Shown: in pieces, positions 3,456-58,270 of the stretch
Layout of the letters: each line of letters opens with the position of its first letter
Numbering within the stretch: position 1 is the first letter of the stretch
IMG/VR virus record: IMGVR_UViG_3300021093_000007
Length of the DNA: 64,000 nt
From: a virus
Reading direction: 5' to 3' (one strand)
Notes under the pieces: generated by a model
The model's input: the letters and a program-made list of their open reading frames with translations, nothing else
Databases searched by the model: none
Told to the model about the DNA's origin: nothing
Made by a program: the position numbers and the translations under genes

Positions 3456-4208
3456 ATGGGAATTGTAATAGATAGGTTGCAAGCAGATCGACAGATGTAT
3501 CTGCTTCAACAACAAAAATTACCACCAAGAATTGCTATAGCTAGTTCTTTGAGGGATTCATTTACTGGTCCTGCTAGGGAAGCGACAAGTCAAACACTTA
3601 CTAGTATAAATTCCGCAAATAGTTTAAAGAGTCAGATTATTGCTATTGGTGGAAATACTGGATTAACAACTACAAGATATGGTGCTAGCACTTCAAATAT
3701 AACCTCTCAATATGGGAGTATAGTATCTGGAGTTGCAACTGCTACTGGAGCAAGTCTTGGAATTTCTGGTTTGGGAACTGTTATTATTGCATATGGGACC
3801 TTAACATCAGATCAGGCAAGAGTGTATGATTATCCCAAAGTATCTGGAGGAGATTATAGTTCAGATTTTCCATTTATTGGAGAAGGATTTGTTGTCCTGA
3901 CAAGCTCCAACCTTGGTGCTGGGGTTAGCACTAGACTGTTCCAATCTAGTGGATCTGAAATTGGTAAAGTATTTGATATTACTGGACCAGCAGTAAATGT
4001 AAGTTCTTTAATCAATCAATATAATTCAACATGGTCTACCGCTGGTAGTCAAGCAACAGCATCAACCGCAGCACAAGAAGTAAAGGGTGATTATGAATTG
4101 CAGGTGTGGGGACTTAACCGACAAAAGCAAGAGAATATTGAAAAACTTGTTGATATTGAAGAAGCAATTGGAATCTCATCAAACCCTGCTTATGGGGGAC
4201 CTTGGTAG
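3456..4208 (+). CDS. Hypothetical Gly/Ser/Thr-rich, likely virion protein
   Basis: 250-aa ORF; late-promoter-like ATAAATA at 3427-3433. Confidence 0.55.
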   Translation: MGIVIDRLQADRQMYLLQQQKLPPRIAIASSLRDSFTGPAREATSQTLTSINSANSLKSQIIAIGGNTGLTTTRYGASTSNITSQYGSIVSGVATATGASLGISGLGTVIIAYGTLTSDQARVYDYPKVSGGDYSSDFPFIGEGFVVLTSSNLGAGVSTRLFQSSGSEIGKVFDITGPAVNVSSLINQYNSTWSTAGSQATASTAAQEVKGDYELQVWGLNRQKQENIEKLVDIEEAIGISSNPAYGGPW

Positions 4209-4311: not shown

Positions 4312-4382
4312 GCGAATGTGGTGTAGCGGTAACATCCCATCCTTCCAAGTTGGTGTCACGGGTTCGATCCCCGTCATTCGCT
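4312..4382 (+). tRNA. tRNA-Gly (TCC)
   Basis: GCGAATG/CATTCGC acceptor stem, TTCGATC T-loop, CT-TCC-AA anticodon loop. Confidence 0.93.
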
Positions 4383-4416
4383 TCCCCTTTACTGGGGATT
4401 TGCAAATTAAATAACC

Positions 4417-4614
4417 ATGATAAAAAAACCTCTTTATTCTGACCTGATTAAAATGCCTGTAAAGACAACTCCAGAGAATGTCAAGGAAGCAAACCAAGGT
4501 CTTTTTAATTGTATGATGACACTTCCTGCCGCAGCAAAACACTGTGGAATGACCCAAAAAGAAATGAAAATGACTTTTAGGGAATATTTGAAGTATCATC
4601 CACCTACTTACTAA
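4417..4614 (+). CDS. Small HTH-like cyanophage protein
   Basis: MTLPAAAKHCGMTQKEMKMTF helix-turn-helix-like segment. Confidence 0.6.
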   Translation: MIKKPLYSDLIKMPVKTTPENVKEANQGLFNCMMTLPAAAKHCGMTQKEMKMTFREYLKYHPPTY

Positions 4615-4628
4615 GAGTAAGTTCTTAT

Positions 4629-4711
4629 GGGGCGGTGGTGGAATCGGTAGACACACCAGACTTAAAATCTGTCGGGCATTGCCTGTGGGGGTTCAAGTCC
4701 CCCTCGCCCTA
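4629..4711 (+). tRNA. tRNA-Leu (TAA)
   Basis: GGTGGAATCGGTAGACAC D-arm, CT-TAA-AA loop, long variable arm, GGGGG-TTCAAGT-CCCCC T-arm. Confidence 0.93.
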
Positions 4712-4785
4712 CTGGAAGGAATAATAAAGGGATTGAGTATAACTCTCCGCCTTCCTTAAACTAAATATAAAAAAAGGTGTAGAGA

Positions 4786-5073
4786 ATGAAGCTTAGACTC
4801 ACCAAAGCTTATTGTTGGCATTCTCCAGAAAAGAGTATAAAAAACGTTGTTGTGATGTACTTCGTTAATTCTATACCGTTTACATGGGATGATTTAACCG
4901 AAGAAGAAGAAGCAGATCCATCTGTTGTTATTGAAGCTAACAATAACCGCATATATACTGCAGAAGACTTATTCAGGTCATCTGCATATTTAATAATGGA
5001 AGAAGCACATCCATGCTTCTTTGAGATGGAGTTAGAAAATCCAGAAGTTTTAGCAGAATTAGACGATTATTAA
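4786..5073 (+). CDS. Conserved cyanophage hypothetical protein
   Basis: 95-aa ORF between tRNAs; CTAAATA late-like motif at 4761. Confidence 0.6.
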   Translation: MKLRLTKAYCWHSPEKSIKNVVVMYFVNSIPFTWDDLTEEEEADPSVVIEANNNRIYTAEDLFRSSAYLIMEEAHPCFFEMELENPEVLAELDDY

Positions 5074-5074
5074 T

Positions 5075-5146
5075 GCCCTTGTAGCTCAGTGGTAGAGCAA
5101 CGGTTTTGTAAACCGTTGGTCGCTGGTTCAAATCCAGTCGGGGGCT
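5075..5146 (+). tRNA. tRNA-Thr (TGT)
   Basis: TAGCTCAGTGGTAGAGC D-arm, TT-TGT-AA loop, GTTCAAATC T-loop. Confidence 0.94.
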
Positions 5147-27008: not shown

Positions 27009-27311
27009 ATGACAAAAATTTATGAGTCTCCTGATAAAGGAGAGACTATTAGAGAAAGAGAATTTAATCAGGCATCTGAACCTAAAAAGACCTGGACTTT
27101 AGAAGTTGAGAAGGTTCATGAAGAATATTTTATTAGTCTCCCAGATGATCTGCTTGATGCTGCCAACTTAAAAGAGGGTGACAATGTAGAATGGGTTGAC
27201 AATGGAGATGGTTCATTTATTATGAAAAAACTTCCTCCAATGACTTATGATGATATGATTGCTGAGGGTTGGACAATGACTGCAGATGGATTTTGGATAA
27301 AGGATAAATAA
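27009..27311 (+). CDS. AbrB/MazE/SpoVT-like DNA-binding protein
   Basis: ISLPDDLLDAANLKEGDNVEWVDNGDGSFIMKK. Confidence 0.7.
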   Translation: MTKIYESPDKGETIREREFNQASEPKKTWTLEVEKVHEEYFISLPDDLLDAANLKEGDNVEWVDNGDGSFIMKKLPPMTYDDMIAEGWTMTADGFWIKDK

Positions 27312-42847: not shown

Positions 42848-42874
42848 ATAATAACACTGGATAATTTGCGCGAC

Positions 42875-44005
42875 ATGATTAAATTTCATCAAGATTTTGC
42901 TGCTACTGGAACTGGATTAGGATATCAAATATCTTCATATATGTTAATGCGTTCCATTGCAAATAGAACGGGGTATAGTTATACTATCAATACAAATGGA
43001 TTAAAAGCACTTAGAAATACATTTACCAATTTACAATTTAACAGCATTAAAGATGAACTTGATGCGGATTTAAAACCAATTGAGTTTTTGGATGATAACT
43101 CTTTTGAAGAAGTTGTTGCAATGGTGGAGGATAATTGTGAATTATATGGTTATCCCACTGTTAAGAGTATGGTTGATCCTGCTAATTTTGAATCTGTTAA
43201 AAAAGAACTGCACTTTAGACCAGAGATTGTTGAGAAGTGCCAAAAGTTTATGTCCCAATTTGATGGGCAAGAAGTAGTATCAATGCATCTACGTAGAGGT
43301 GACTTTGAAGATCTTCAATCTGGAATGTTTTTAATTGATGATGATTACTATAAAGAAGCATTAGAGTTGCTACCAAAAGATATTCCTGTTCTTATTTTTT
43401 GTAATGTAAAAGATTATATTTTAACTCATCCTATTCTAACTGCAAGTGATCCAGAGAGATTTACTTTTGTTCTTGATATATTCAATGATAATGAATTTAT
43501 TAATTGTGATGTAGGGCAAGAGTTGGATAGATTGGTTGATGCTTCTGGAGAGTGTAGATTTGATTATAAAGCAGCATTAGCTAAACACGCTTATGATAAT
43601 CTAATACCATCCACCCCGACTCAAGAGGAGTTAAATCAAGAGATGGTGAGACTTGCAAAAGAATTACATCCATTATATAAAAAGAAGATTGCAAATAATC
43701 TTTATAATTATTCATTTGAACTTTGTTTAATGTCAATGTGTGATTATCATATTATGGCAAATAGTTCATTTGGTATGTGGGGCGTTCAATTGTCAAATAC
43801 TAAGAAAGTAATATATCCTAAGTATTGGATGCAAGGTCATGATGAAGAGACAAGGAATGCTTTTGCAGAAATTGGTTTAGGTGCGATTAAAATAGATCTT
43901 GGTGGTTATGATCAAACCAGAGACCTTGCAGAATATATTATTGATAAACCACACTACATAGGATTAGAGAATCCAGATCAACGTTCATTTACAATTGTTA
44001 GTTAA
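42875..44005 (+). CDS. Alpha-1,2-fucosyltransferase-like glycosyltransferase (GT11)
   Basis: GLGYQ, SMHLRRGD, YYKEAL, LMSMCDYHIMANSSFGMWG; CTAAATA upstream. Confidence 0.8.
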   Translation: MIKFHQDFAATGTGLGYQISSYMLMRSIANRTGYSYTINTNGLKALRNTFTNLQFNSIKDELDADLKPIEFLDDNSFEEVVAMVEDNCELYGYPTVKSMVDPANFESVKKELHFRPEIVEKCQKFMSQFDGQEVVSMHLRRGDFEDLQSGMFLIDDDYYKEALELLPKDIPVLIFCNVKDYILTHPILTASDPERFTFVLDIFNDNEFINCDVGQELDRLVDASGECRFDYKAALAKHAYDNLIPSTPTQEELNQEMVRLAKELHPLYKKKIANNLYNYSFELCLMSMCDYHIMANSSFGMWGVQLSNTKKVIYPKYWMQGHDEETRNAFAEIGLGAIKIDLGGYDQTRDLAEYIIDKPHYIGLENPDQRSFTIVS

Positions 44006-47834: not shown

Positions 47835-49013
47835 ATGGTGAATCCTGCGTATGTTGTTGGTTATGGGATGATTGATGCACTGGGAAATACTCCTGGTGAT
47901 TGCTTTTTGAATTTGATGAATGATTATAATCCCATTCAAAAGCTAGATTTTATGGGAGATCATAAGATTCAGTATGGTATTCCATGTTTGCATGATATTC
48001 TACTTCCCGAGGCGTTTACGCCGAAAATAACCGCTAACATGACGCGGGCACAACAGATGGCACTTCATGCAACTGAACAGGCACTGAAGATGGCAAATCT
48101 ACCACACTCATCAAATGTTGCTGTAATTGTATCAAGTGTATCAAATGATGTGGAGTTTCTTGATGGTAACTTCCAACGATTCAAAGAGAATAAGAGGGTA
48201 AATCCATTTAAGATTGTGAATCGTATTCCCGATATGATTGTAGGACAGATTACGAGTCATTATAAGTTTCACGGGGCATCACTGGCAATCTATGCAAGTT
48301 GTGCGACTGGAATGTATTCAATTGATTATGCGATGAGGATACTGGATGAGTATGATTATGTGATTGTAGGTGGAGCAGATGCTGGAGTCTTTGAGATGGC
48401 ATTAAAATACTTCGCTGGCATTGGCGCACTGGGTAATCATAATTCTCCATTTGATGAGAATCGTGAAGGATTTGTGATGGGAGAAGGCGCGGGTATTTTA
48501 ATTTTACAGTCAAAGGATAAAGTACAACACTATAAGTCAACTGTTCATGCAAAGTTATATCCAGTTGGTTGTGCAAGTGATGCAATGGATTTAACAAGTC
48601 CTGCCACTGATGGACGTGGTGCAAGATTAGCACTGGATAAAGCATTGGATGGTATTGAACCTGATACGATTGATGTGATCTCTGCACATGCTACAAGTAC
48701 ACCGATTGGTGATGAAGTAGAATATGATGTATTGCGTGAGTATTTGCCTGATATTCCAATCTATGCACCTAAATCAAAGATTGGTCATACACTTGCTGCT
48801 GCATCTGTATTGGAATGTATTTACGGTATTCTGAGTATGAAGAATGGTGTGATGCCATATTGTTATAATCTGAAGAATGCAGAGTATGATGTATCAAGGC
48901 AACTTATAAGGACTCCACGTAGCTTCAAGACATCAAAAGTTCTGCGTACAGTGAATAATAGTTTTGGTTTTGGTGGTAAGTGTGCATCACAAGTGATTGA
49001 GGTAAAACTGTGA
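47835..49013 (+). CDS. fabF: Beta-ketoacyl-ACP synthase (FabF/FabB-like)
   Basis: ASCATG (Cys), PFDENREGFVMGEGAG, SAHATST (His), KSKIGHT (His), NSFGFGG. Confidence 0.88.
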   Translation: MVNPAYVVGYGMIDALGNTPGDCFLNLMNDYNPIQKLDFMGDHKIQYGIPCLHDILLPEAFTPKITANMTRAQQMALHATEQALKMANLPHSSNVAVIVSSVSNDVEFLDGNFQRFKENKRVNPFKIVNRIPDMIVGQITSHYKFHGASLAIYASCATGMYSIDYAMRILDEYDYVIVGGADAGVFEMALKYFAGIGALGNHNSPFDENREGFVMGEGAGILILQSKDKVQHYKSTVHAKLYPVGCASDAMDLTSPATDGRGARLALDKALDGIEPDTIDVISAHATSTPIGDEVEYDVLREYLPDIPIYAPKSKIGHTLAAASVLECIYGILSMKNGVMPYCYNLKNAEYDVSRQLIRTPRSFKTSKVLRTVNNSFGFGGKCASQVIEVKL

Positions 49014-49282
49014 GTTATTATGTGGTTGTGAATCTGAATACAGGAGAGAATATATGTCAATGTGCATTGCTCAGTGATGCACAAATGATGGTAGCATTGA
49101 ATCCTGCGAATCGAGCATATCGTAAAGTTACACCGTTGAATGATCAGGTGATTGATATCACTGTAAATGATACAAAGGAACTTCCTGGTCAATTAGGACT
49201 ACCACCAGGGAGTTATAAACTTGAAGGTCAAAAGATTTATAAATTAACTGAGAATCAGCAAGTGGCATTTAATGGACTTTGA
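49010..49282 (+). CDS. Hypothetical protein
   Basis: GTGA-coupled ORF. Confidence 0.55.
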   Translation: MSYYVVVNLNTGENICQCALLSDAQMMVALNPANRAYRKVTPLNDQVIDITVNDTKELPGQLGLPPGSYKLEGQKIYKLTENQQVAFNGL

Positions 49283-50270
49283 TCAGAATTATAGTGAAAG
49301 AATGCAGTCTCTCAATAAAGAGATAGACTCTCAATATAATGGTATTGCACTGATTAATGAATCAATGCGATTAAGTTATTATGATCAAATTCTAAAAGAA
49401 TGTAAAGGTAAACGTTGTATTGATGTTGGTTCAGGTAGTGGTGTTCTAGCATTCCTAGCATTAAAGCATAAAGCAAAGCATGTAACCTGTTTTGAACAAA
49501 ATCCAAAGTCTGCTGCTCATATTCAAAATGTAGCAAAAAAAATGGGTTTATCTAAAAAGATTCATGTGATTAATAATGAATTCATTGCATCTAAATTTGA
49601 TTCATATAATGTTAAAGATGTTGATATTCTCTTTCATGAATTGGTAGGATCTTTTATCTGGAATGATATGATGGGTAGTGCATTTAATGTCCCATTACCC
49701 TTTAAAATACTACCATCTGAATATATCATTCATTTTAGTATTATACGTTTAACTATTCAAGATTATAGTCATTTGATTAATATTGAGAATAATCCAGGTA
49801 TCTCAAGAGGAGTAACATTAGACCTGGGTTTATCTCCTAAATTTGCTGAATATTATAATAATGTTATTCACTCAGCAGATCATTATTATCATCATGTTCA
49901 TCTTGTGGATAAAAATAGCACTTTTGTAGGTGTTCGCAATCTATTGCAAGACATCTATCAAACACATGAATTTGAACATATTGGCACTCATGTGTTTGAT
50001 ATTAATAATCCAGAACACTATCAGTCAAATCGTATCATACAGTTTAAGTTACCAGAGATTGATGAACCTTATTTACTTGTGATTCGTCCAATGTTAAAGT
50101 GTGGAGATTCTGTATTAGACTTTAAACATTGTTATACTGCATTCACTGGATATTATACTCCTGTTATTATTCCACCTCATAGTTCTTGTAATGCATTCCG
50201 TTATAAAATCTTTGAAAATGATATGAAAATTGACAAAATAACATTAAAAAAAGGTTTTTCTATTAATTAA
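49272..50270 (+). CDS. Class I SAM-dependent methyltransferase, PRMT-like
   Basis: LIN...R..YY, IDVGSGSGVLA, HVTCFE, VDILFHELVG. Confidence 0.75.
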   Translation: MDFDQNYSERMQSLNKEIDSQYNGIALINESMRLSYYDQILKECKGKRCIDVGSGSGVLAFLALKHKAKHVTCFEQNPKSAAHIQNVAKKMGLSKKIHVINNEFIASKFDSYNVKDVDILFHELVGSFIWNDMMGSAFNVPLPFKILPSEYIIHFSIIRLTIQDYSHLINIENNPGISRGVTLDLGLSPKFAEYYNNVIHSADHYYHHVHLVDKNSTFVGVRNLLQDIYQTHEFEHIGTHVFDINNPEHYQSNRIIQFKLPEIDEPYLLVIRPMLKCGDSVLDFKHCYTAFTGYYTPVIIPPHSSCNAFRYKIFENDMKIDKITLKKGFSIN

Positions 50271-50400
50271 ATGTATTTTTAAATATAAAAGTGTGTTTTT
50301 GTTCTTGATTCTCATTTGCAAATACTTATTGAGAATACAGTGGTTTATGCTCTTATAATCCCTCTGAATCCCTCTGAATCCTTGTGATCTTAGGCAGCGT

Positions 50401-50429
50401 ATTATAGCACAACCGCAAAAAAACGTCAA
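50401..50429 (-). promoter_or_regulatory. Antisense sigma70-type promoter in non-coding region
   Basis: Minus strand TTGACG-N17-TATAAT with TGn extension. Confidence 0.7.
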
Positions 50430-50464
50430 GACCCGCGAAGAAAAATATAAGGATTCGCACAAAA

Positions 50465-50600
50465 TCTCGACGAGACGGGCACTTGACAATCTCGACGAGA
50501 TGTGCATCAAGACTCATAAGATCATCATAAAATCTCGACGAGACCTGCGCGGTTATTCTCAATAACAAATCCTTATTGAGAATCATAAATCTCGACGAGA
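50465..50600. repeat. Four copies of TCTCGACGAGA
   Basis: Exact copies at 50465, 50490, 50533, 50590. Confidence 0.9.
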
Positions 50601-50684
50601 TGTGGGCGAATCCACATATGGTATCATATAAGTTCTCGTTGTGTCATATATAATGCATCGTTATCAATACATTCTTATAAGGTA

Positions 50685-50713
50685 TTGACACAACGGTAAG
50701 TGTGGAGTAAGAT
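50685..50713 (+). promoter_or_regulatory. Sigma70-type early promoter
   Basis: TTGACA-N17-TAAGAT. Confidence 0.65.
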
Positions 50714-50737
50714 TACTACAGTTCGCACAAAGTTCTC

Positions 50738-50908
50738 ATGACAACTATCTACGATCAAGCCCGTAAGCATCGTTATCGCGTCACACTGGAACTCGACGTT
50801 CTTGGTGACTTTGATCCTCACAATATTAATTGGGAGAAGATGTTTAAACTTGAATCTGGTGAGAAGTGCGATGCTTATATTGAGGATCTGGATTCTGATA
50901 TCTGGTGA
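50738..50908 (+). CDS. Conserved small cyanophage protein
   Basis: 56-aa ORF read manually (RYRVTLELDVLGDFDPHNINWEKMF). Confidence 0.65.
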   Translation: MTTIYDQARKHRYRVTLELDVLGDFDPHNINWEKMFKLESGEKCDAYIEDLDSDIW

Positions 50909-50935
50909 GGCGTAACTCCTCAATATAACATAAAG

Positions 50936-50974
50936 GGCCTTATGTGTCAAGGTGGGGGCACATAAGGTCTTTTT
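50936..50974. terminator. Probably bidirectional intrinsic terminator
   Basis: GGCCTTATGTGTC/GGCACATAAGGTC stem, T5 after and A-run before. Confidence 0.65.
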
Positions 50975-51114
50975 ATGTTTTTGTATACTTTTTATAAAAA
51001 AGTTTGCAGGTTCGGTGTCGATGTGTTGATCAGGCAGATACCCCTCTGCCGTTCCCCTAAGGGCGCTGGTTGTCCTTATAAAATAGCACAGAAGATCGGA
51101 AAAGATCCGATGAT

Positions 51115-51173
51115 GTGCCAGTTTTTGAGCAGTCCACTGGTTGGTTGCATGGTGGGTTTGCAGCGGTTATATT
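51115..51173 (+). promoter_or_regulatory. 22-bp inverted-repeat promoter cassette
   Basis: GTGCCAG-N8-CAGTCCA; TATATT at 51168. Confidence 0.7.
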
Positions 51174-51199
51174 GGCGGAGTCCAACACACCTCAACCCA

Positions 51200-51664
51200 A
51201 TGGGCACTCGTTCTCGCATCGGTTACGAACTTCCTGATCATTCTGTGGTTAGTGTTTACTGCCACTGGGATGGTTATGTTGAACACAATGGTAAGATTCT
51301 GGTAGAGCATTATCAGAACCGCGATGATGTTCAGGACCTGATTAATGGTGGTTCGATGTCATGTCTTCGTACAAATCGTACCTGGGATAGTGCTGCTCTT
51401 CGTGATAAGGAGGGCAATATTATAGAGGATGATGCTGGCATTTGGTCTTATTCTCACACTCGTGAACCACAACCTTTGTATCATACAGAGCGTGGTGAAG
51501 AGTTAGATGTTGATCATACTGATTTTGATCAATTTGTCTCTGGTAAAATGTGCGGTGAAGAGTATGCATACCTGTTCGATTTGAACGGTAACTGGAAAGC
51601 ATACAAGATCGGTTGGGGACCTGTTGAGCGGGTCAATATTCCCAACTATGTGACAGCAGCGTAA
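51200..51664 (+). CDS. Conserved phage protein (MGTRSRIG...VYCHWDGY family)
   Basis: Family-typical N-terminus and EEYAYLF C-terminus; start moved from 50975. Confidence 0.75.
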   Translation: MGTRSRIGYELPDHSVVSVYCHWDGYVEHNGKILVEHYQNRDDVQDLINGGSMSCLRTNRTWDSAALRDKEGNIIEDDAGIWSYSHTREPQPLYHTERGEELDVDHTDFDQFVSGKMCGEEYAYLFDLNGNWKAYKIGWGPVERVNIPNYVTAA

Positions 51665-51708
51665 CTGTCCACCTCGGGGTGCTCCGCACCCCTTCCACCC
51701 CTTATACT
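51650..51708 (+). promoter_or_regulatory. 22-bp inverted-repeat promoter cassette
   Basis: GTGACAG-N8-CTGTCCA; GGGGTGC/GCACCCC hairpin; TATACT at 51703. Confidence 0.75.
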
Positions 51709-51730
51709 GACATCAGTTCACACCACCCCA

Positions 51731-51880
51731 ATGAACTTCACCATCTCTGAACTCTCTGCTCTTGCTGATCTGATTGCATTCCATGATGATTGGGATGAGT
51801 GCAGCGAAATCGTTGGTTGCGATGTTGCTGTACTTCATGAAAAGATCATGGATCTGATGACTGCTGCAGGAGAAGGTTGA
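51731..51880 (+). CDS. Small acidic protein
   Basis: 49-aa ORF read manually after promoter. Confidence 0.55.
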   Translation: MNFTISELSALADLIAFHDDWDECSEIVGCDVAVLHEKIMDLMTAAGEG

Positions 51881-52095
51881 TGGCACTTTCCAACACATCA
51901 ATCAAAAAAATCGCTGCAGCACTTGCTGAAGATGTTGCAGCAGATTTGATTCATGATGACGATTGGTTAGACTTCCTTCATACTGCGATTGGAAATCTGA
52001 TTGTCAACAAACTGGGTCAAATCGATGATGAGGTTCTTGCAGAACTCATTATGATGATCTCTGAAAACTTGTACGTAAAGTCTTATGAATTCTGA
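51880..52095 (+). CDS. Small acidic protein
   Basis: TGATG-coupled ORF. Confidence 0.6.
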   Translation: MALSNTSIKKIAAALAEDVAADLIHDDDWLDFLHTAIGNLIVNKLGQIDDEVLAELIMMISENLYVKSYEF

Positions 52096-52204
52096 AATTC
52101 AAGAAGTGATGTCAATTGATGAGGCATTCACTGCTGCAATTGAAGAAGAAGCAGCAAAGCTGGAAGTCACTGTAGATTATTATCTGGAGGAATTCTTCCT
52201 CTAG

Positions 52205-52261
52205 TGGACAGTCTGTGAACTGTCCATAAAATCTCGACGAGACGCGCACCCGCGTTATTAT
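52205..52261 (+). promoter_or_regulatory. 22-bp inverted-repeat cassette carrying TCTCGACGAGA at the -35 position
   Basis: TGGACAG-N8-CTGTCCA; TCTCGACGAGA at 52232; TATTAT at 52256. Confidence 0.7.
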
Positions 52262-52282
52262 TCATTTGTTCACTTCTGAATC

Positions 52283-52516
52283 ATGAAGTATCAAATCACT
52301 TCCATTGAGTTTGATTGTTCACTTGACGAGGATGACTGGTCAGAATCAGACCAAATCATGACTGAAGAACGCCTCAATGAGGTTTATGTTGGTCAGATTT
52401 GGGATGCTGATGATGAGGAAGATCTCATAGATGAGATTAGCACTGCATCTGGTTGGTGCATCAAATCCATTGATTATCGCCACGTTCTCAAAACCAACAA
52501 CTTTGGAGACAACTGA
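52283..52516 (+). CDS. Small acidic cyanophage protein
   Basis: IEFD...WDADDEEDLIDEISTASGWCIKSIDY. Confidence 0.65.
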   Translation: MKYQITSIEFDCSLDEDDWSESDQIMTEERLNEVYVGQIWDADDEEDLIDEISTASGWCIKSIDYRHVLKTNNFGDN

Positions 52517-52785
52517 TGTATCGAACTCTTGCTGAACTTCGTGACTCTATCAACCAAATGATTGAGAGTCAAGGTGAGAACGCAGGTTGTGCTGCGTTTG
52601 TATTCACTCAACACGATGTCTTTGAGTATAACGAAGAAGACAATCAAGACCAGTATTTTCCTACTGTCTTCACTCAAGATGTGCTCTGTGATGTAGGAGG
52701 TTCTTCCTACATTTACGAACAGGTTGGTGAGATGATTGATGATGCAATCCGTCTCCGCAAAAAACTTCCCCTCTACGCTAACTGA
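52516..52785 (+). CDS. Small acidic protein
   Basis: TGATG-coupled ORF. Confidence 0.6.
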   Translation: MYRTLAELRDSINQMIESQGENAGCAAFVFTQHDVFEYNEEDNQDQYFPTVFTQDVLCDVGGSSYIYEQVGEMIDDAIRLRKKLPLYAN

Positions 52786-52786
52786 C

Positions 52787-52960
52787 ATGAACCGTCAAGA
52801 ACTTCTGGATGCCTACATTGATCGCATCCTTGACAACATGAGCACCAAAGATTTGATGCGTTTGGTAGGCGATCAGATCGAAGAAAACCTCTCTGGTTAT
52901 AGCGACGAAGAACTGATTGCAGAGGTTGAAGAATACTATCCTGAACTGCTGGAAGGATAA
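52787..52960 (+). CDS. Small acidic protein
   Basis: MNRQELLDAYI...EVEEYYPELLE. Confidence 0.6.
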   Translation: MNRQELLDAYIDRILDNMSTKDLMRLVGDQIEENLSGYSDEELIAEVEEYYPELLEG

Positions 52961-53035
52961 GAAACTTTAATGGGTCAGGGGGTTGCAATTCTCGCGGATG
53001 GGTGCCATGATGACATCAGTTCACGGGAACACCCC

Positions 53036-53167
53036 ATGACCCTCGTCTCCGCCTCTGACATCCAAACCCGCAAACTGGTCTGGATCAAGAACAGCACCGC
53101 CACTGGTGTGCCAGCTGCAGCACCGTCCTATGTGTGGGCAGAACTGGGTCGCCGTGGTATGATTTGA
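53036..53167 (+). CDS. Small hypothetical protein
   Basis: After TTGCAA-N17-CATGAT promoter; start moved. Confidence 0.5.
   Translation: MTLVSASDIQTRKLVWIKNSTATGVPAAAPSYVWAELGRRGMI
53108..53163 (+). promoter_or_regulatory. 22-bp inverted-repeat promoter cassette (degenerate)
   Basis: GTGCCAG-N8-CCGTCCT; TATGAT at 53158. Confidence 0.55.
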
Positions 53168-53420
53168 TCGTTCACCACTGAACTCCAATGCCTGAAATCA
53201 CCTGGATTGATGATCTTCCGATGCCCGCAATGTCGGAAGATGAGTATCAAGAATCCGAACATTATGAGGATTCTGATTGGTGGAATGACCCCAATTGTGT
53301 AATGTCCCGTCATCATTATTGATCATGATTGAATCACTCTTGGCTGCTTACATTGTCGGTCAGGTTATCACTGGACCGAATCAAATCACAACAGATTATC
53401 TCAACGAAGATAATCAGATT

Positions 53421-53477
53421 GTGACAGTTATCGAACCGATCCAAGAGGTTGACACCAACTATTGGTGATGCTATCAT
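53421..53477 (+). promoter_or_regulatory. 22-bp inverted-repeat cassette plus full sigma70 promoter
   Basis: GTGACAG-N8-CCGATCC; TTGACA(53449)-N17-TATCAT. Confidence 0.7.
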
Positions 53478-53547
53478 AGGTTCACAAGCGGGGGTGAAGC
53501 ATCCCGCTCAAAACACTTCACTCAAACCCTTACTTTTTTAATTTATT

Positions 53548-53763
53548 ATGTTTAACTTCACTTCTTCTGCCATCGAAAGCATCTCTGATGTGACTGATGG
53601 TAAAGTGACCGTCACCTTCGTTGGTGGTCGTGAGTACACCTACGCTGTGCCCAATGTTGATCAATTCGTTAGCGAACTGACCAGCACTATCAACGCACGA
53701 GGTAGCGTGGGTCGCTTTGTCAACACTGCGATCAAGAGCGAGCAACTGGTTGCTTCCCTCTGA
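53548..53763 (+). CDS. KTSC-domain-like protein
   Basis: SSAIESI...VTF..GREYTY.V...SVGRFVNTAIK. Confidence 0.6.
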   Translation: MFNFTSSAIESISDVTDGKVTVTFVGGREYTYAVPNVDQFVSELTSTINARGSVGRFVNTAIKSEQLVASL

Positions 53764-53773
53764 TAGTAACAGA

Positions 53774-53840
53774 TCTCGTCGAGATTATCACATTTAATCT
53801 CGACGAGTTTATCACACTTACAAATCTCGACTAGGTATCA
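53774..53840. repeat. Three ~25-bp units of TCTCG(A/T)CGAG plus TATCAC
   Basis: Copies at 53774 (inverted), 53798 and 53825 (degenerate), each followed by TATCAC. Confidence 0.8.
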
Positions 53841-53846
53841 CGTATC

Positions 53847-53978
53847 ATGGAAAACACTTCGATTCTGATTTCAATGCTTCGTCAGGGTAGCAATGGTGAA
53901 GAAATCCTTCAGATTCTTGACACCATCACCGCTTCTGATGATACAATGAAACCGACCAGTGAACCAATCGATTTCTGA
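53847..53978 (+). CDS. Small hypothetical protein
   Basis: 43-aa ORF read manually (LISMLRQGSNGEEILQILDTI). Confidence 0.5.
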   Translation: MENTSILISMLRQGSNGEEILQILDTITASDDTMKPTSEPIDF

Positions 53979-53982
53979 TACA

Positions 53983-54171
53983 ATGGACACCGCATTCGTC
54001 ACGCCTGTATCTAAAAAAGCAAAAAACAGATTTGCTAATTTAATGGACGGAATTGATGAGTGTATTGTAGAACAACACAAAGAGGATAAAGTATTCCTCA
54101 CCAGTCACAACGGTAGAAACCATTTCTGGGTTAATCTAAACAAAGATCCTGACTGGATTGTAGAGTTCTAA
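53983..54171 (+). CDS. Small hypothetical protein (paralog family A)
   Basis: PVSKKAKNRFANLMDG...HFWVN..DPDW. Confidence 0.65.
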   Translation: MDTAFVTPVSKKAKNRFANLMDGIDECIVEQHKEDKVFLTSHNGRNHFWVNLNKDPDWIVEF

Positions 54172-56519: not shown

Positions 56520-57212
56520 TCAGGGTCCAACGATTCTCGGAGATGTCCAAGGGACATTATGAGGTTTATCAAGAATACAAAATTCAAAACGAATTACGAT
56601 TTTTTCTTCATCGTCTTTATATGGAATGTATTCACCAAACTTAGAATCTCTAAAGATAAACAGAGAGTTCTCTGCACCATCACTTTTATAATACTGAGAT
56701 TTATTATATTTTACAACGGTTCCGTTACCAATACTTGTATTCTTTAAATAATAAATTGCGGTGATAAATGTATCTTCGGGCCATAGGGAGTCTACACTTC
56801 TTTCTAAGTCACATATAGGTCTTCTTCTTTTATCTGCTAAAATTTTAATCGCCCAACAAGAATGTGGGAAGACTTGATATCCTGTAGATAAAATACTTTT
56901 ATGTTTCCATTTTGGTTTCAATAATTCTGGATAAACTAGTAAGAGATATTCTTTTACTTTTTCACATACTGTTTTACAAAAAGTATTCCAATATGGTTGA
57001 CAATAAGGATAGATGAGACTATCTGTTAAATGCAATCCATGACAATCCATGATACAGTTTGTGATTTGATATAGATCTGTTGCTTTGGCATTTGAATTAG
57101 AATTGAATTTAAAATGTTTATCACAACTCTCTAATAAGTCATCAATAGTTTTTGAGTCAAATACATCATAGCACTGATAGTATTTGTGATTAATGACTTT
57201 ATTTTTATACAT
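56520..57212 (-). CDS. Degenerate 2OG-Fe(II) oxygenase-like protein
   Basis: CWAIK...TAIYYLKN..GT...ENSLFIF as in 19458..20111 but His ligands absent. Confidence 0.55.
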   Translation of the reverse strand: MYKNKVINHKYYQCYDVFDSKTIDDLLESCDKHFKFNSNSNAKATDLYQITNCIMDCHGLHLTDSLIYPYCQPYWNTFCKTVCEKVKEYLLLVYPELLKPKWKHKSILSTGYQVFPHSCWAIKILADKRRRPICDLERSVDSLWPEDTFITAIYYLKNTSIGNGTVVKYNKSQYYKSDGAENSLFIFRDSKFGEYIPYKDDEEKIVIRFEFCILDKPHNVPWTSPRIVGP

Positions 57213-57274: not shown

Positions 57275-57436
57275 ATGGACAAAGTTTATCACATCTACGA
57301 CAAAGATAACCATTGTATTGATGCTGTTCTCTCTGAAGATGAATTCATAGAGAAATGGAAAGAACTCAAAGGGAAGGAATTTGACTATGAGGAAGTCGAA
57401 GTAAATCGACAACTTATGGTAGAGTGTTCCTATTGA
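57275..57436 (+). CDS. Small conserved cyanophage protein
   Basis: 53-aa ORF read manually; GAGGA SD. Confidence 0.55.
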   Translation: MDKVYHIYDKDNHCIDAVLSEDEFIEKWKELKGKEFDYEEVEVNRQLMVECSY

Positions 57437-57484: not shown

Positions 57485-58270
57485 ATGGCAAAAGGATTCA
57501 CTGTAAAAGCCACTGCTCCTACGCAACCTAAGGAGGATTGGGACTATGATGCAATTAGAGAGAGGATGCGAGGCAAGAGTATTGTCTTTTGTCTTCCAGG
57601 ACGTGGTTGTTCCTATCAATTTTTAAAATCATTTGTACAACTCTGTTTTGACCTTGTGCAGAATGGAATGAGTATTCAGATCTCTCAAGACTATTCTTCC
57701 ATGGTTAACTTTGCACGTTGCAAATGTCTTGGTGCAAACGTTCTTCGTGGACCAAAGCAAATTCCTTGGGATGGTAAACTGCAATATGATTACCAACTTT
57801 GGATTGATAATGACATTGTGTTCAACACAGAAAAATTCTGGCAATTGTGCGATCTCGCAGTACCTGGACCAGATAAAGACGGTATTCCTCAAGAAGAAAA
57901 AGAGATCGTTGCTGGATGGTATGCCACTGAAGATGGGGTAACAACCTCAGTTGCTCACTGGTTGGATGAGGATGACTTCCGTAAGAACGGTGGTGTTATG
58001 AATCATGAGACCACTGAATCTATGGCAAAGAGACGTAAACCATTCACCGTGGATTACACAGGTTTTGGTTGGGTTATGATTCGTAACGGTGTCTTTGAGC
58101 GTCTTGAGTATCCTTGGTTTGCTCCTAAGATGCAAGTCTTTGAATCTGGCGCAGTTCAGGATATGTGTGGAGAGGACGTATCGTTCTGTCTGGATGCCAA
58201 AGAGGCAGGCATTGAAACCTGGTGCGATCCACGGATTCGTGTTGGTCACGAGAAGACTCGTGTGATTTGA
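57485..58270 (+). CDS. GT-A/GT2-like glycosyltransferase conserved in cyanophages
   Basis: YDYQLWIDND, VDYTGFGW, GEDVSFC, RVGHEK. Confidence 0.7.
   Translation: MAKGFTVKATAPTQPKEDWDYDAIRERMRGKSIVFCLPGRGCSYQFLKSFVQLCFDLVQNGMSIQISQDYSSMVNFARCKCLGANVLRGPKQIPWDGKLQYDYQLWIDNDIVFNTEKFWQLCDLAVPGPDKDGIPQEEKEIVAGWYATEDGVTTSVAHWLDEDDFRKNGGVMNHETTESMAKRRKPFTVDYTGFGWVMIRNGVFERLEYPWFAPKMQVFESGAVQDMCGEDVSFCLDAKEAGIETWCDPRIRVGHEKTRVI

What the first reader, a model, noticed from the sequence alone, without database searches (positions are those of the whole stretch)
50450..53840. Eight copies of quasi-palindrome AATCTCGACGAGA in two gene-free clusters and one promoter
Seen: exact TCTCGACGAGA at 50465, 50490, 50533, 50590 and 52232; inverted at 53774; variants at 53798 and 53825. 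I saw none outside 50.4-53.9 kb. The first cluster is bracketed by an imperfect inverted repeat (GGATTCGCAC at 50451 / GGGCGAATCC at 50604). One copy directly follows a TTGACA and one sits at the -35 position of a promoter cassette. The second cluster is a ~25-bp tandem with TATCAC. Inference: iteron- or operator-like sites for one phage protein, marking an origin, a packaging/terminus signal or a looped repression domain. No listed gene explains them.
Basis: partly seen in the sequence, partly recalled or inferred. Interest (0 to 1): 0.76.

Follow-up and report, generated by a model that had tools for sequence, protein, structure and literature searches.

The report
Operator-like palindrome arrays in cyanophage
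A 13-base two-fold symmetric DNA word is packed into three gene-free stretches ahead of small early-type genes of an uncultured T4-like cyanophage and recurs at the same genomic place in well over a hundred related phage contigs, including P-SSM2. It is most likely the docking site of a still unproven small regulator that controls a few early promoters.

Summary
Eight copies of A-TCTCG-W-CGAGA-T lie in three gene-free gaps at 50.46-53.84 kb and nowhere else in the 64 kb (chance expectation 0.39).

The window is part of IMG/VR contig 3300010370_000034, a divergent T4-like cyanomyovirus. Arrays also occur in isolates P-SSM2, S-SRM01, S-T4 and S-SKS1, but not in 14 other cyanophage isolates. Five picocyanobacterial genomes show no excess over a reversed-word control.

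In two larger contigs of the window's own clade, all 8 and all 9 sites sit within 0.26 and 3.7 kb. Sites are dyad-symmetric, helically phased across the family, and often lie in the spacer, the -35 position or the start site of promoters.

Best reading (0.6): operators for a dimeric, probably phage-encoded, DNA-binding protein that controls a few early-type promoters.

Best binder candidate (about 0.3): small AbrB/MazE-fold proteins of phrog_661. These sit about 60 bp upstream of the T4-GC102 gene in 38 of 43 array loci. This window lacks that copy and has only a divergent paralogue at 27009-27311.

I found no support for an origin or packaging reading. An earlier agent of this scan reported the same motif on another phage genome. 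I found no published description.

The parts
50465..50475 (.). site 1, TCTCGACGAGA (flanks A...C)
50490..50500 (.). site 2, full 13-bp dyad ATCTCGACGAGAT; TTGACA (50483-50488) abuts it, as in the P-SSM2 promoter, but no -10 follows at 16-18 bp here
50533..50543 (.). site 3
50590..50600 (.). site 4, full 13-bp dyad
50451..50613 (.). array 1 as a whole, bracketed by the 10-bp inverted repeat GGATTCGCAC / GGGCGAATCC (9 of 10); also holds an 11-bp perfect hairpin, ATTCTCAATAA-N7-TTATTGAGAAT, at 50555-50583
   Evidence: array conserved upstream of the orthologous small gene in 13 loci
50685..50713 (+). sigma-70-like promoter TTGACA-17-TAAGAT, 85 bp downstream of array 1; it is followed by the leader AGTTCGCAC and the 56-aa ORF
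   Evidence: promoter and leader conserved in L055, L057, L050, L093, L109
50738..50908 (+). 56-aa ORF (phrog_12516), the commonest gene family downstream of arrays; followed by a strong terminator at 50932-50973
   Evidence: family also present in S-SM2 and P-TIM68, which lack the motif
50401..50429 (-). leftward sigma-70-like promoter TTGACG-17-TATAAT (11 of 12), 35 bp left of site 1; possible divergent partner
   Evidence: -10 conserved in L050; function untested
52232..52242 (.). site 5, embedded in an early-type promoter cassette
   Evidence: same arrangement in L055 and L050
52205..52261 (+). promoter cassette: palindrome TGGACAGT-N6-ACTGTCCA (52205-52226), site 5 (13 nt upstream of the -10), -10-like TATTAT (52256-52261); drives ORF 52283-52516
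53774..53784 (.). site 6, ATCTCGTCGAGAT (central T)
53798..53808 (.). site 7, TCTCGACGAGT (1 mismatch)
53825..53835 (.). site 8, TCTCGACTAGG (1 mismatch to TCTMGWCKAGA)
   Evidence: three sites also present at this junction in relative L057
27009..27311 (+). 100-aa AbrB/MazE-domain protein (P0001), the only phrog_661 member on the contig; candidate binder, unproven
   Evidence: Pfam MazE_antitoxin 30.9 bits against a cut-off of 24.7; phrog_661 E 3.8e-9; hhalign to the f102 family E 3.7e-4

Best explanation
The 11-13 bp dyads (A)TCTCG-W-CGAGA(T) are operator sites for one dimeric sequence-specific DNA-binding protein, most probably phage-encoded. Several dyads set close together, mostly on one face of the helix, would be bound cooperatively. 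Where a dyad lies in the spacer, at the -35 position or on the start site of a promoter, the bound protein would exclude RNA polymerase. In this way a small, fixed set of early-type promoters would be turned down once the protein has accumulated. In this window that set is the control region ahead of the 56-aa gene at 50738, the cassette promoter of the 52283 gene group, and the junction before 53847. What is shown: the sites, their symmetry, their confinement to gene-free DNA, their overlap with promoter-like elements, their phasing across the family, their conservation at the syntenic place, and their absence from host genomes. What is inferred: protein binding, the sign of regulation, and the identity of the protein. 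The best candidate is a small AbrB/MazE-fold protein of phrog_661; my estimate that it is the binder is about 0.3.
For: The motif is strongly non-random and local. The paired motif is in at least 120 IMG/VR contigs that are relatives of this phage. Arrays are conserved upstream of the same small gene in 13 loci despite turnover of individual sites. The flanks extend the dyad: A at -1 in 73% and T at +11 in 52% of copies. Spacings peak at 22-24, 31-33, 42 and 53 bp; the 10.5-bp periodicity amplitude is 0.45 against a null maximum of 0.20 in 5000 trials. In P-SSM2 a site fills the spacer of a consensus promoter, TTGACA-a-site-5 nt-TATAAT, and the same holds in L120, L036, L112, L046, L045, L039 and L064. 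Strong -10 hexamers pile up 5-7 nt after the site end: 36 of 232 contexts, against 1-7 per other offset. In 18 loci a cassette promoter carries one site 14 nt upstream of its -10 and a second on the start site. Only 7 of 81 oriented arrays lie inside a long ORF. Five host-type genomes show no excess over the reversed word. For the candidate binder: the f102 family (PSSM2_102) is present in all four array-bearing isolates and absent from six array-free isolates that I scanned in full. It sits about 60 bp upstream of T4-GC102 in 38 of 43 array loci. All 54 sites found near 80 independently fetched f102 genes lie upstream of the gene, none downstream. Its model (pLDDT 78) has beta-beta-alpha-beta-beta topology, and its top Foldseek hits are the AbrB N-domain, MazE, SpoVT, Abh and VapB.
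Against: No binding or transcript data exist for any of these phages. About 65% of sites overlap no recognisable core promoter element. In this window the TTGACA next to site 2 has no -10 partner, array 1 lies 85-250 bp upstream of the only good rightward promoter, and the window's own spacings (25, 43, 57; 24, 27) are only loosely phased. Against the binder candidate: this window and its clade (L050, L010, L032, L093, L109) lack f102 at the syntenic slot, which holds an unrelated 54-aa protein. G007 (102 kb, 52% complete) has arrays but no phrog_661 hit. Genomes with f102 or with P0001-type genes can lack arrays: Sf-CH8, IMG/VR G002 (90% complete), DSL-LC03, S-B68, S-SSM4 and S-CAM9. The isolates are related to one another and were partly chosen by gene content, so the co-occurrence is suggestive only.
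Confidence: 0.6

Rival explanations
1. The dyad is an activator site rather than a repressor site. A phage protein bound at about -32 would replace the missing -35 contact, in the manner of the MotA box of T4 middle promoters, and switch on a delayed-early set of genes.
For: In the cassette promoters (window 52205-52261; 18 loci) the site lies 13-14 nt upstream of the -10, where no -35 hexamer is present. That geometry is close to the T4 MotA box centred at -30 (established knowledge). T4-like cyanophages lack MotA and AsiA (PMC5780444, citing Doron 2016 and Thompson 2016).
Against: The commonest fixed geometry is 5-7 nt before the -10, inside the spacer of promoters that already have a consensus TTGACA. 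Further sites sit on start sites. Both positions are typical of occlusion, not recruitment. Most sites have no -10 at any fixed distance.
Confidence: 0.15
2. The dyads are bound by a host transcription factor that the phage borrows to couple a few early promoters to host physiology.
For: Other early-promoter palindromes of cyanophages have been proposed in earlier notes of this scan to copy host sites (unverified). No single phage gene is present in all array-bearing sequences that I examined.
Against: Two Prochlorococcus and three Synechococcus genomes carry 0-4 copies each, no more than the reversed control, which gives 0-4. A scan of bacterial genomes for the paired motif showed no cyanobacterium among the 80 rows listed. 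Phages of the same hosts, such as WH7803 and NATL2A, differ in having or lacking arrays.
Confidence: 0.12
3. The main array is a replication origin or a transcription-primed origin (as in T4 oriF and oriG), with the dyads as initiator sites.
For: Complete or near-complete genomes have essentially one main array, in an unusually long gene-free stretch: P-SSM2 66.0-66.2 kb, S-SRM01 90.9 kb, G016 82.3-82.5 kb. A strong promoter is part of it in P-SSM2.
Against: The sites are palindromic with variable spacing, not directional iterons. There is no AT-rich unwinding tract: local AT equals the genome mean, and the 200-bp maxima do not exceed the 99th percentile in the four isolate genomes. There is no GC-skew turn. 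The window and G007 have three separate clusters, each tied to a gene start. No initiator gene is adjacent.
Confidence: 0.07
4. The sites are a packaging or terminus signal, a mobile-element end, or a homing-endonuclease target.
For: Array 1 is bracketed by a 10-bp inverted repeat. GIY-YIG endonuclease genes lie 230-400 bp from arrays in 5 loci. In the S-T4 record the array falls in the terminal duplication.
Against: T4-like phages package by headful without a fixed site (established knowledge). The array keeps its syntenic position across phages that share as little as 35-45% protein identity in the downstream small gene. The bracket repeat is only partly conserved. Most arrays have no endonuclease nearby.
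Confidence: 0.04

Closest known systems
Operator arrays inside early promoters of phages (lambda OR/OL with CI and Cro; P22 Arc/Mnt; phi29 p4/p6)
   Same: Several short dyad-symmetric sites are set side by side. They overlap the -35, spacer or start-site positions, with spacing that puts them on one helical face. They are confined to one control region of the genome.
   Different: The phage here is strictly lytic and T4-like. The site sequence is unrelated. There are up to 8-9 sites per genome with fast turnover in number and spacing. No cognate regulator gene is adjacent, and none has been shown.
Early-gene regulatory element of T4-like cyanophages (Doron et al. 2016, ISME J 10:1437; the paper was not readable here)
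   Same: It is a cis-element of small early-type genes of cyanomyoviruses. In this window one dyad is built into such a cassette (upstream palindrome plus -10, 52205-52261).
   Different: Syn9, the phage in which that element was defined, has no copy of TCTCGWCGAGA. Most early-type promoters of this window lack the dyad. It is therefore a second, separate element with a patchy distribution.
AbrB/MazE/SpoVT swapped-hairpin DNA-binding proteins (AbrB, Abh, MazE, VapB; archaeal virus and plasmid proteins C68 and C56)
   Same: The candidate binder family (phrog_661) has the same small beta-beta-alpha-beta-beta domain by model and, for the window's member, by Pfam. Such domains act as dimers on promoter DNA.
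   Different: The proteins are single-domain and about 57 aa, with no toxin partner or C-terminal domain. Binding to the dyad is untested. Some members occur in phages without arrays.
T4 MotA box of middle promoters
   Same: In the cassette promoters the site takes the place of a -35 element, 13-14 nt upstream of the -10.
   Different: The site is palindromic and occurs in arrays. It is more often in the spacer of complete promoters. I did not look for MotA or AsiA here; published genome comparisons report them absent from cyanophages.

Membership tests
Phage operator array (repressor sites in early promoters) | Dyad-symmetric site of about 11-21 bp | tested here: met
   5-1-5 palindrome, extended to 6-1-6 by A at -1 (73%) and T at +11 (52%) in 421 copies
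Phage operator array (repressor sites in early promoters) | Sites overlap core promoter elements | tested here: inconclusive
   82 of 232 contexts overlap a predicted spacer, -35 position or start site, and -10 hexamers peak 5-7 nt after the site. There are clear cases in P-SSM2 and several loci. The promoters are predicted, not mapped, and 65% of sites overlap none.
Phage operator array (repressor sites in early promoters) | Cooperative spacing on one helical face | tested here: met
   Periodicity amplitude at 10.5 bp is 0.45 against a null maximum of 0.20. The window's own spacings fit only loosely.
Phage operator array (repressor sites in early promoters) | A cognate DNA-binding protein that binds the sites | not testable with these tools
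   Only a candidate by co-occurrence and fold, with counter-examples.
Iterons of a replication origin | Directly repeated, directional 17-22 bp units next to an AT-rich unwinding element and an initiator gene | tested here: not met
   Units are palindromic, 11-13 bp, with variable spacing. AT content equals the mean and there is no skew turn. No initiator-like gene is adjacent.
Cyanophage early-gene element of Doron et al. 2016 | Present upstream of the early genes of Syn9 | tested here: not met
   The Syn9 genome has no exact copy and only 3 scattered one-mismatch hits, equal to the control. I could not read the published motif itself.
SpoVT/AbrB (MazE) domain, for the candidate binder | Sequence match to PF04014 | tested here: met
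   Window protein 27009-27311 scores 30.9 bits against a cut-off of 24.7. The f102 members themselves give no Pfam hit but share phrog_661 with it.
SpoVT/AbrB (MazE) domain, for the candidate binder | Swapped-hairpin beta-beta-alpha-beta-beta fold | tested here: inconclusive
   The f102 model has pLDDT 78 and the right topology. Its top Foldseek hits are AbrB-N, MazE, SpoVT, Abh and VapB, at TM 0.5-0.6 with rmsd 2.1-2.9 over 46-48 residues, but all E-values are above 0.05, as expected for 60 aa.

The most novel reading that the evidence does not exclude
A subset of T4-like cyanophages, including P-SSM2, S-T4, S-SRM01, S-SKS1 and this uncultured lineage, carries a self-contained and so far undescribed control circuit. 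A roughly 57-aa AbrB-fold phage protein would bind phased arrays of the TCTCGWCGAGA dyad and shut off (or time) a handful of immediate-early promoters. This would be a Cro-like switch in a strictly lytic phage group that lacks MotA and AsiA.
Probability: 0.3. Interest if true: 0.7.

Novelty: new variant of a known kind. Interest (0 to 1): 0.58.

Why it matters
How T4-like cyanophages order their early transcription without the T4 regulators MotA and AsiA is only partly understood. This dyad is a sharply defined, easily searchable cis-element. It is present in cultured model phages (P-SSM2, S-T4, S-SRM01, S-SKS1), it marks a specific small set of promoters, and it comes with a concrete candidate protein. 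That makes a bench test straightforward. If confirmed, it would add a phage-encoded repressor layer to the cyanophage infection programme and give a marker for one lineage-spanning regulatory module in metagenomes.

Tried and rejected
1. The 56-aa gene downstream of array 1 as the autoregulating binder. I rejected this because homologues in S-SM2 and P-TIM68 sit behind ordinary promoters in genomes without a single site.

2. PSSM2_095 family (53 aa, 0.7-2.3 kb upstream of arrays in 48 loci). S-SSM7 has it without arrays, S-T4 and S-SKS1 have arrays without it, and it is not in the window.

3. The window's 55814 protein (84 aa). It matches no Pfam or PHROG family, is in only 10 array loci, and is absent from the four array-bearing isolates.

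4. The 54-aa protein that replaces f102 upstream of T4-GC102 in the window's clade (57275-57436), as a diverged AbrB. hhalign probability is 0.4%, and its model (pLDDT 75) has no coherent fold match.

5. Alternative palindromes in f102-bearing contigs that lack arrays, as a test of co-evolving specificity. I found none.

6. Four other P-SSM2 ORFs with the same phyletic pattern as f102 (113, 75, 673 and 451 aa). None has a Pfam match. The two I searched for (113 and 75 aa) are absent from the window-clade contigs, and one has a weak hit in the array-free S-SM2.

7. A sense-strand function. The central base is A in 147 and T in 85 oriented sites, a modest bias, and no fixed flanking signal appears. 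The stem would leave a 1-nt loop, so an RNA hairpin is not feasible.

8. Rfam on the whole window found only three tRNAs.

9. Host clue from the FabF-like gene: no close relative in the bacterial genome collection.

10. Literature: the word occurs in 7 unrelated eukaryotic papers only. The Doron 2016 paper is not held.


Full report
**The sequence.** The region 50.3-54.0 kb holds exact TCTCGACGAGA at 50465, 50490, 50533, 50590 and 52232. The central-T form is at 53774, and one-mismatch variants are at 53798 and 53825. With up to one mismatch there is no other copy in 64 kb; dinucleotide-preserving shuffles give 0.39 on average and never more than 2. A looser search adds only a chance-level hit at 3842. 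All copies lie in gaps between ORFs: 50271-50737, 52205-52282 and 53764-53846.
- The bracket repeat GGATTCGCAC / GGGCGAATCC is 9 of 10 complementary.
- A TTGACA abuts copy 2.
- Copy 5 sits at the -35 position of a promoter cassette.
- Cluster 2 is a 24/27-bp repeat of site plus TATCAC.

**What the window is.** gp6-like and other baseplate genes and a best tblastn identity of 54% to gp6 of Synechococcus phage S-SM2 place it among T4-like cyanomyoviruses, far from any isolate. An exact 42-mer identifies the source as IMG/VR contig 3300010370_000034, which is 69.8 kb long with an estimated completeness of 32%. No whole genome is held.

**The motif elsewhere.**
- These contigs are relatives of the window phage and share many of its small genes and baseplate genes.
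- The 1.1 Mb of fetched flanks hold 424 exact copies. The flanks extend the dyad to A-TCTCG-W-CGAGA-T.
- Allowing the variants TCTMGWCKAGA gives 546 sites. That consensus was reported by an earlier agent of this scan on another phage.
- Whole-genome scans show arrays in P-SSM2 (four sites at 66030-66169), S-SRM01 (four at 90907-91006 plus singles), S-T4 (four, inside the terminal duplication of the record) and S-SKS1 (two, 97 bp apart).
- Fourteen other isolates have none, or only scattered single sites: Syn9, S-SM2, P-TIM68, S-WAM1, S-CRM01, S-PM2, P-HM2, P-RSM6, S-SSM7, DSL-LC03, S-B68, S-SSM4, S-CAM9 and Sf-CH8.
- In two larger contigs of the window's own clade all sites are local. In G016 (172 kb, 81% complete) eight sites lie within 260 bp. 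In G007 (102 kb) nine sites lie in three clusters within 3.7 kb. The reversed control gives zero in both.
- The distribution is therefore the opposite of 'evenly scattered'.

**Anatomy and link to promoters.**
- Upstream of the orthologue of the 56-aa ORF (50738-50908), 13 loci carry an array. In the closest relatives it is followed by a sigma-70-like promoter and a conserved leader. The number and spacing of sites differ between loci, so the array is kept while single sites turn over.
- Across 276 non-redundant neighbouring pairs the spacings peak at 22-24, 31-33, 42 and 53 bp. The 10.5-bp periodicity amplitude is 0.45, against at most 0.20 in 5000 random draws. The window's own spacings (25, 43, 57; 24, 27) fit only loosely.
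- In P-SSM2 one site fills the spacer of a consensus promoter, TTGACA-a-site-tctgg-TATAAT, and another lies about 20 nt downstream. The same spacer placement recurs in several loci.
- Over 232 oriented, non-redundant contexts, strong -10 hexamers pile up 5-7 nt after the site (36 cases, against 1-7 at other offsets). In all, 82 sites overlap a predicted spacer, -35 position or start site.
- In 18 loci the gene homologous to window 53959-54171 is preceded by a cassette with four parts. These are an upstream GTGCCA-N10-TGGCAC palindrome, one site 14 nt upstream of the -10, the -10 itself, and a second site on the predicted start.
- The window's copy 5 has the first of these geometries.
- Only 7 of 81 oriented arrays fall inside a long ORF.
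- The central base shows a modest sense-strand bias, A 147 to T 85, and no other directional signal appears.

**Rival functions.**
- Origin: the array regions are not AT-rich, and cumulative GC skew runs monotonically through them in the window and in four complete genomes. The units are palindromic and tied to several separate gene starts.
- Host factor: two Prochlorococcus and three Synechococcus genomes carry no more copies than the reversed word. A scan of bacterial genomes for the pair mostly returned high-GC bacteria, with no cyanobacterium among the 80 rows shown.
- Packaging: T4-like phages package by headful (established knowledge), and nothing here argues otherwise.
- RNA-level function: the stem would leave a one-base loop, and Rfam finds nothing.

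**Which protein might bind.**
- I screened P-SSM2 ORFs for presence near arrays and absence from six array-free genomes. The 63-aa PSSM2_102 family ('f102') stood out, alongside two other small families (PSSM2_095 and PSSM2_107) that were later set aside. f102 is in 40 of 120 array loci, always 1.5-9 kb downstream of the arrays on the same strand.
- Among isolates f102 occurs in P-SSM2 and P-SSM5, S-SRM01 (annotated as a DNA-binding domain protein), S-T4, S-SKS1, Sf-CH5 and Sf-CH8, and one single-cell virus record, with a weak hit in P-RSM6.
- All four array-bearing isolates have it. In an unbiased screen it is one of five real ORFs present in all of them and in none of six array-free genomes.
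- Of 43 array loci that reach the T4-GC102 gene (window 57485-58270), 38 have f102 about 60 bp upstream of it.
- Around 80 independently fetched f102 genes, all 54 sites lie upstream and none downstream.
- The f102 model (pLDDT 78) is beta-beta-alpha-beta-beta. Its best structural matches are the AbrB N-domain, MazE, SpoVT, Abh and VapB.

**Limits of that candidate.**
- The window, and the five array loci whose T4-GC102 is most like the window's, lack f102 at that slot. They carry instead an unrelated 54-aa protein with no fold match.
- The window does encode one member of the same PHROG family, phrog_661, at 27009-27311. It scores above threshold on Pfam MazE_antitoxin and aligns to f102 with hhalign E 3.7e-4. 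G016 also has one member, but G007 shows none in 102 kb.
- Phages that have only this paralogue type (DSL-LC03, S-B68, S-SSM4, S-CAM9) have no arrays. Some f102-bearing genomes (Sf-CH8; IMG/VR G002, 90% complete) have none either.
- The family is thus close to necessary but clearly not sufficient. The isolates are related and were partly picked by gene content. I rate it at about 0.3 as the binder.
- Other local candidates failed simple phyletic checks: the 56-aa gene, PSSM2_095 and the 55814 protein.

**Comparison with what is known.**
- The arrangement works like classical phage operator arrays, but in a lytic T4-like phage and with an unrelated site.
- It is not the early-gene element described for Syn9, because Syn9 has no copy. 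I could not read that paper.
- The window also contains cassettes with an upstream palindrome, a -10 box and an AGTTCAC-type leader. Earlier notes of this scan ascribe these to the Syn9-type element. Only one of them carries the dyad.
- A full-text search found the word only in unrelated eukaryotic papers. Searches on cyanophage early promoters and AbrB found nothing relevant.
- An earlier agent of this scan reported the same motif on another phage genome, including its presence in P-SSM2 and its phasing. I re-tested both here, and both hold.

**Verdict.** This is a real, conserved, sharply localised cis-element. It is most likely an operator for a dimeric, probably phage-encoded regulator of a few early-type promoters (0.6). 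The binder is unproven, and in this lineage it is unresolved. I class it as a new variant of a known kind. It is moderately interesting because it can be tested directly in cultured phages.

Noticed in passing
window 51660-51735, 52205-52282, 52990-53040, 53449-53547: Several small gene groups are each headed by an early-type cassette: upstream palindrome or ACTGTCCAC/TGGCAC-type box, GC-rich hairpin, -10 box and an (A)GTTCAC leader. These look like the cyanophage early-promoter type noted in earlier findings of this scan. Only the 52205 cassette carries the TCTCGACGAGA dyad.
   Followed up: partly
window 50308-50336 and 50555-50583: A second recurring element. The inverted repeat ATTCTCA...TGAGAAT occurs twice, once as a perfect 11-bp stem (ATTCTCAATAA-N7-TTATTGAGAAT) between sites 3 and 4, and once just after the methyltransferase gene. 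Its function is unknown.
   Followed up: no
window 50360-50381 and 50401-50429 (- strand): A leftward consensus-like promoter (TTGACG-17-TATAAT) 35 bp from site 1 points into a conserved gene-free stretch that holds the direct repeat CCCTCTGAAT x2. This may be a small divergent transcript. The -10 and a similar repeat are kept in relative L050.
   Followed up: partly
L249:6125-6280 (P-SSM2 PSSM2_098) and loci L004, L009, L028, L044, L112, L036, L046: The annotated small acidic ORF 'MY(D/Y)..DLD..DLDE...LAY(K/R)HYA' downstream of arrays is largely spelled by degenerate copies of the dyad (GATCTCGACGAG reads D-L-D-E). Its conserved end coincides with a TTGCAT-17-TATAAT promoter. It may be regulatory DNA rather than a gene.
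   Followed up: partly
window 57275-57436 and 56520-57212 (-): In the window's clade the slot just upstream of T4-GC102 holds a 53-55 aa protein (phrog_2626) instead of the AbrB-like f102. In the window a 230-aa minus-strand gene is inserted next to it. By eye this protein, PSSM2_095 and PSSM2_107 share a 'K-x-Y-x-I' start followed by an acidic helix; I ran no comparison among them.
   Followed up: partly
window 42866-44005, 47835-49013, 49272-50270: Accessory genes lie just upstream of the arrays: a GT11-type fucosyltransferase-like protein, a FabF-like beta-ketoacyl synthase, and a 332-aa methyltransferase with an RsmD/N6-type N-terminal domain. The methyltransferase has no tblastn match in the phage collection, and the ketoacyl synthase has no close relative in the bacterial genome collection.
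   Followed up: partly
S-SKS1 record NC_020851, 144748-151221: S-SKS1, classified outside Kyanoviridae (Llyrvirus), carries the same module: two dyads, an f102 gene and a T4-GC102 gene. This suggests the module is exchanged between cyanophage groups.
   Followed up: no
loci L005, L018, L070, L110: GIY-YIG homing-endonuclease-like genes lie 230-400 bp downstream of arrays in several relatives. The long gene-free array regions may be favoured insertion points.
   Followed up: no
window 4312-5146: Three tRNA genes (Gly-TCC, Leu-TAA, Thr-TGT).
   Followed up: no
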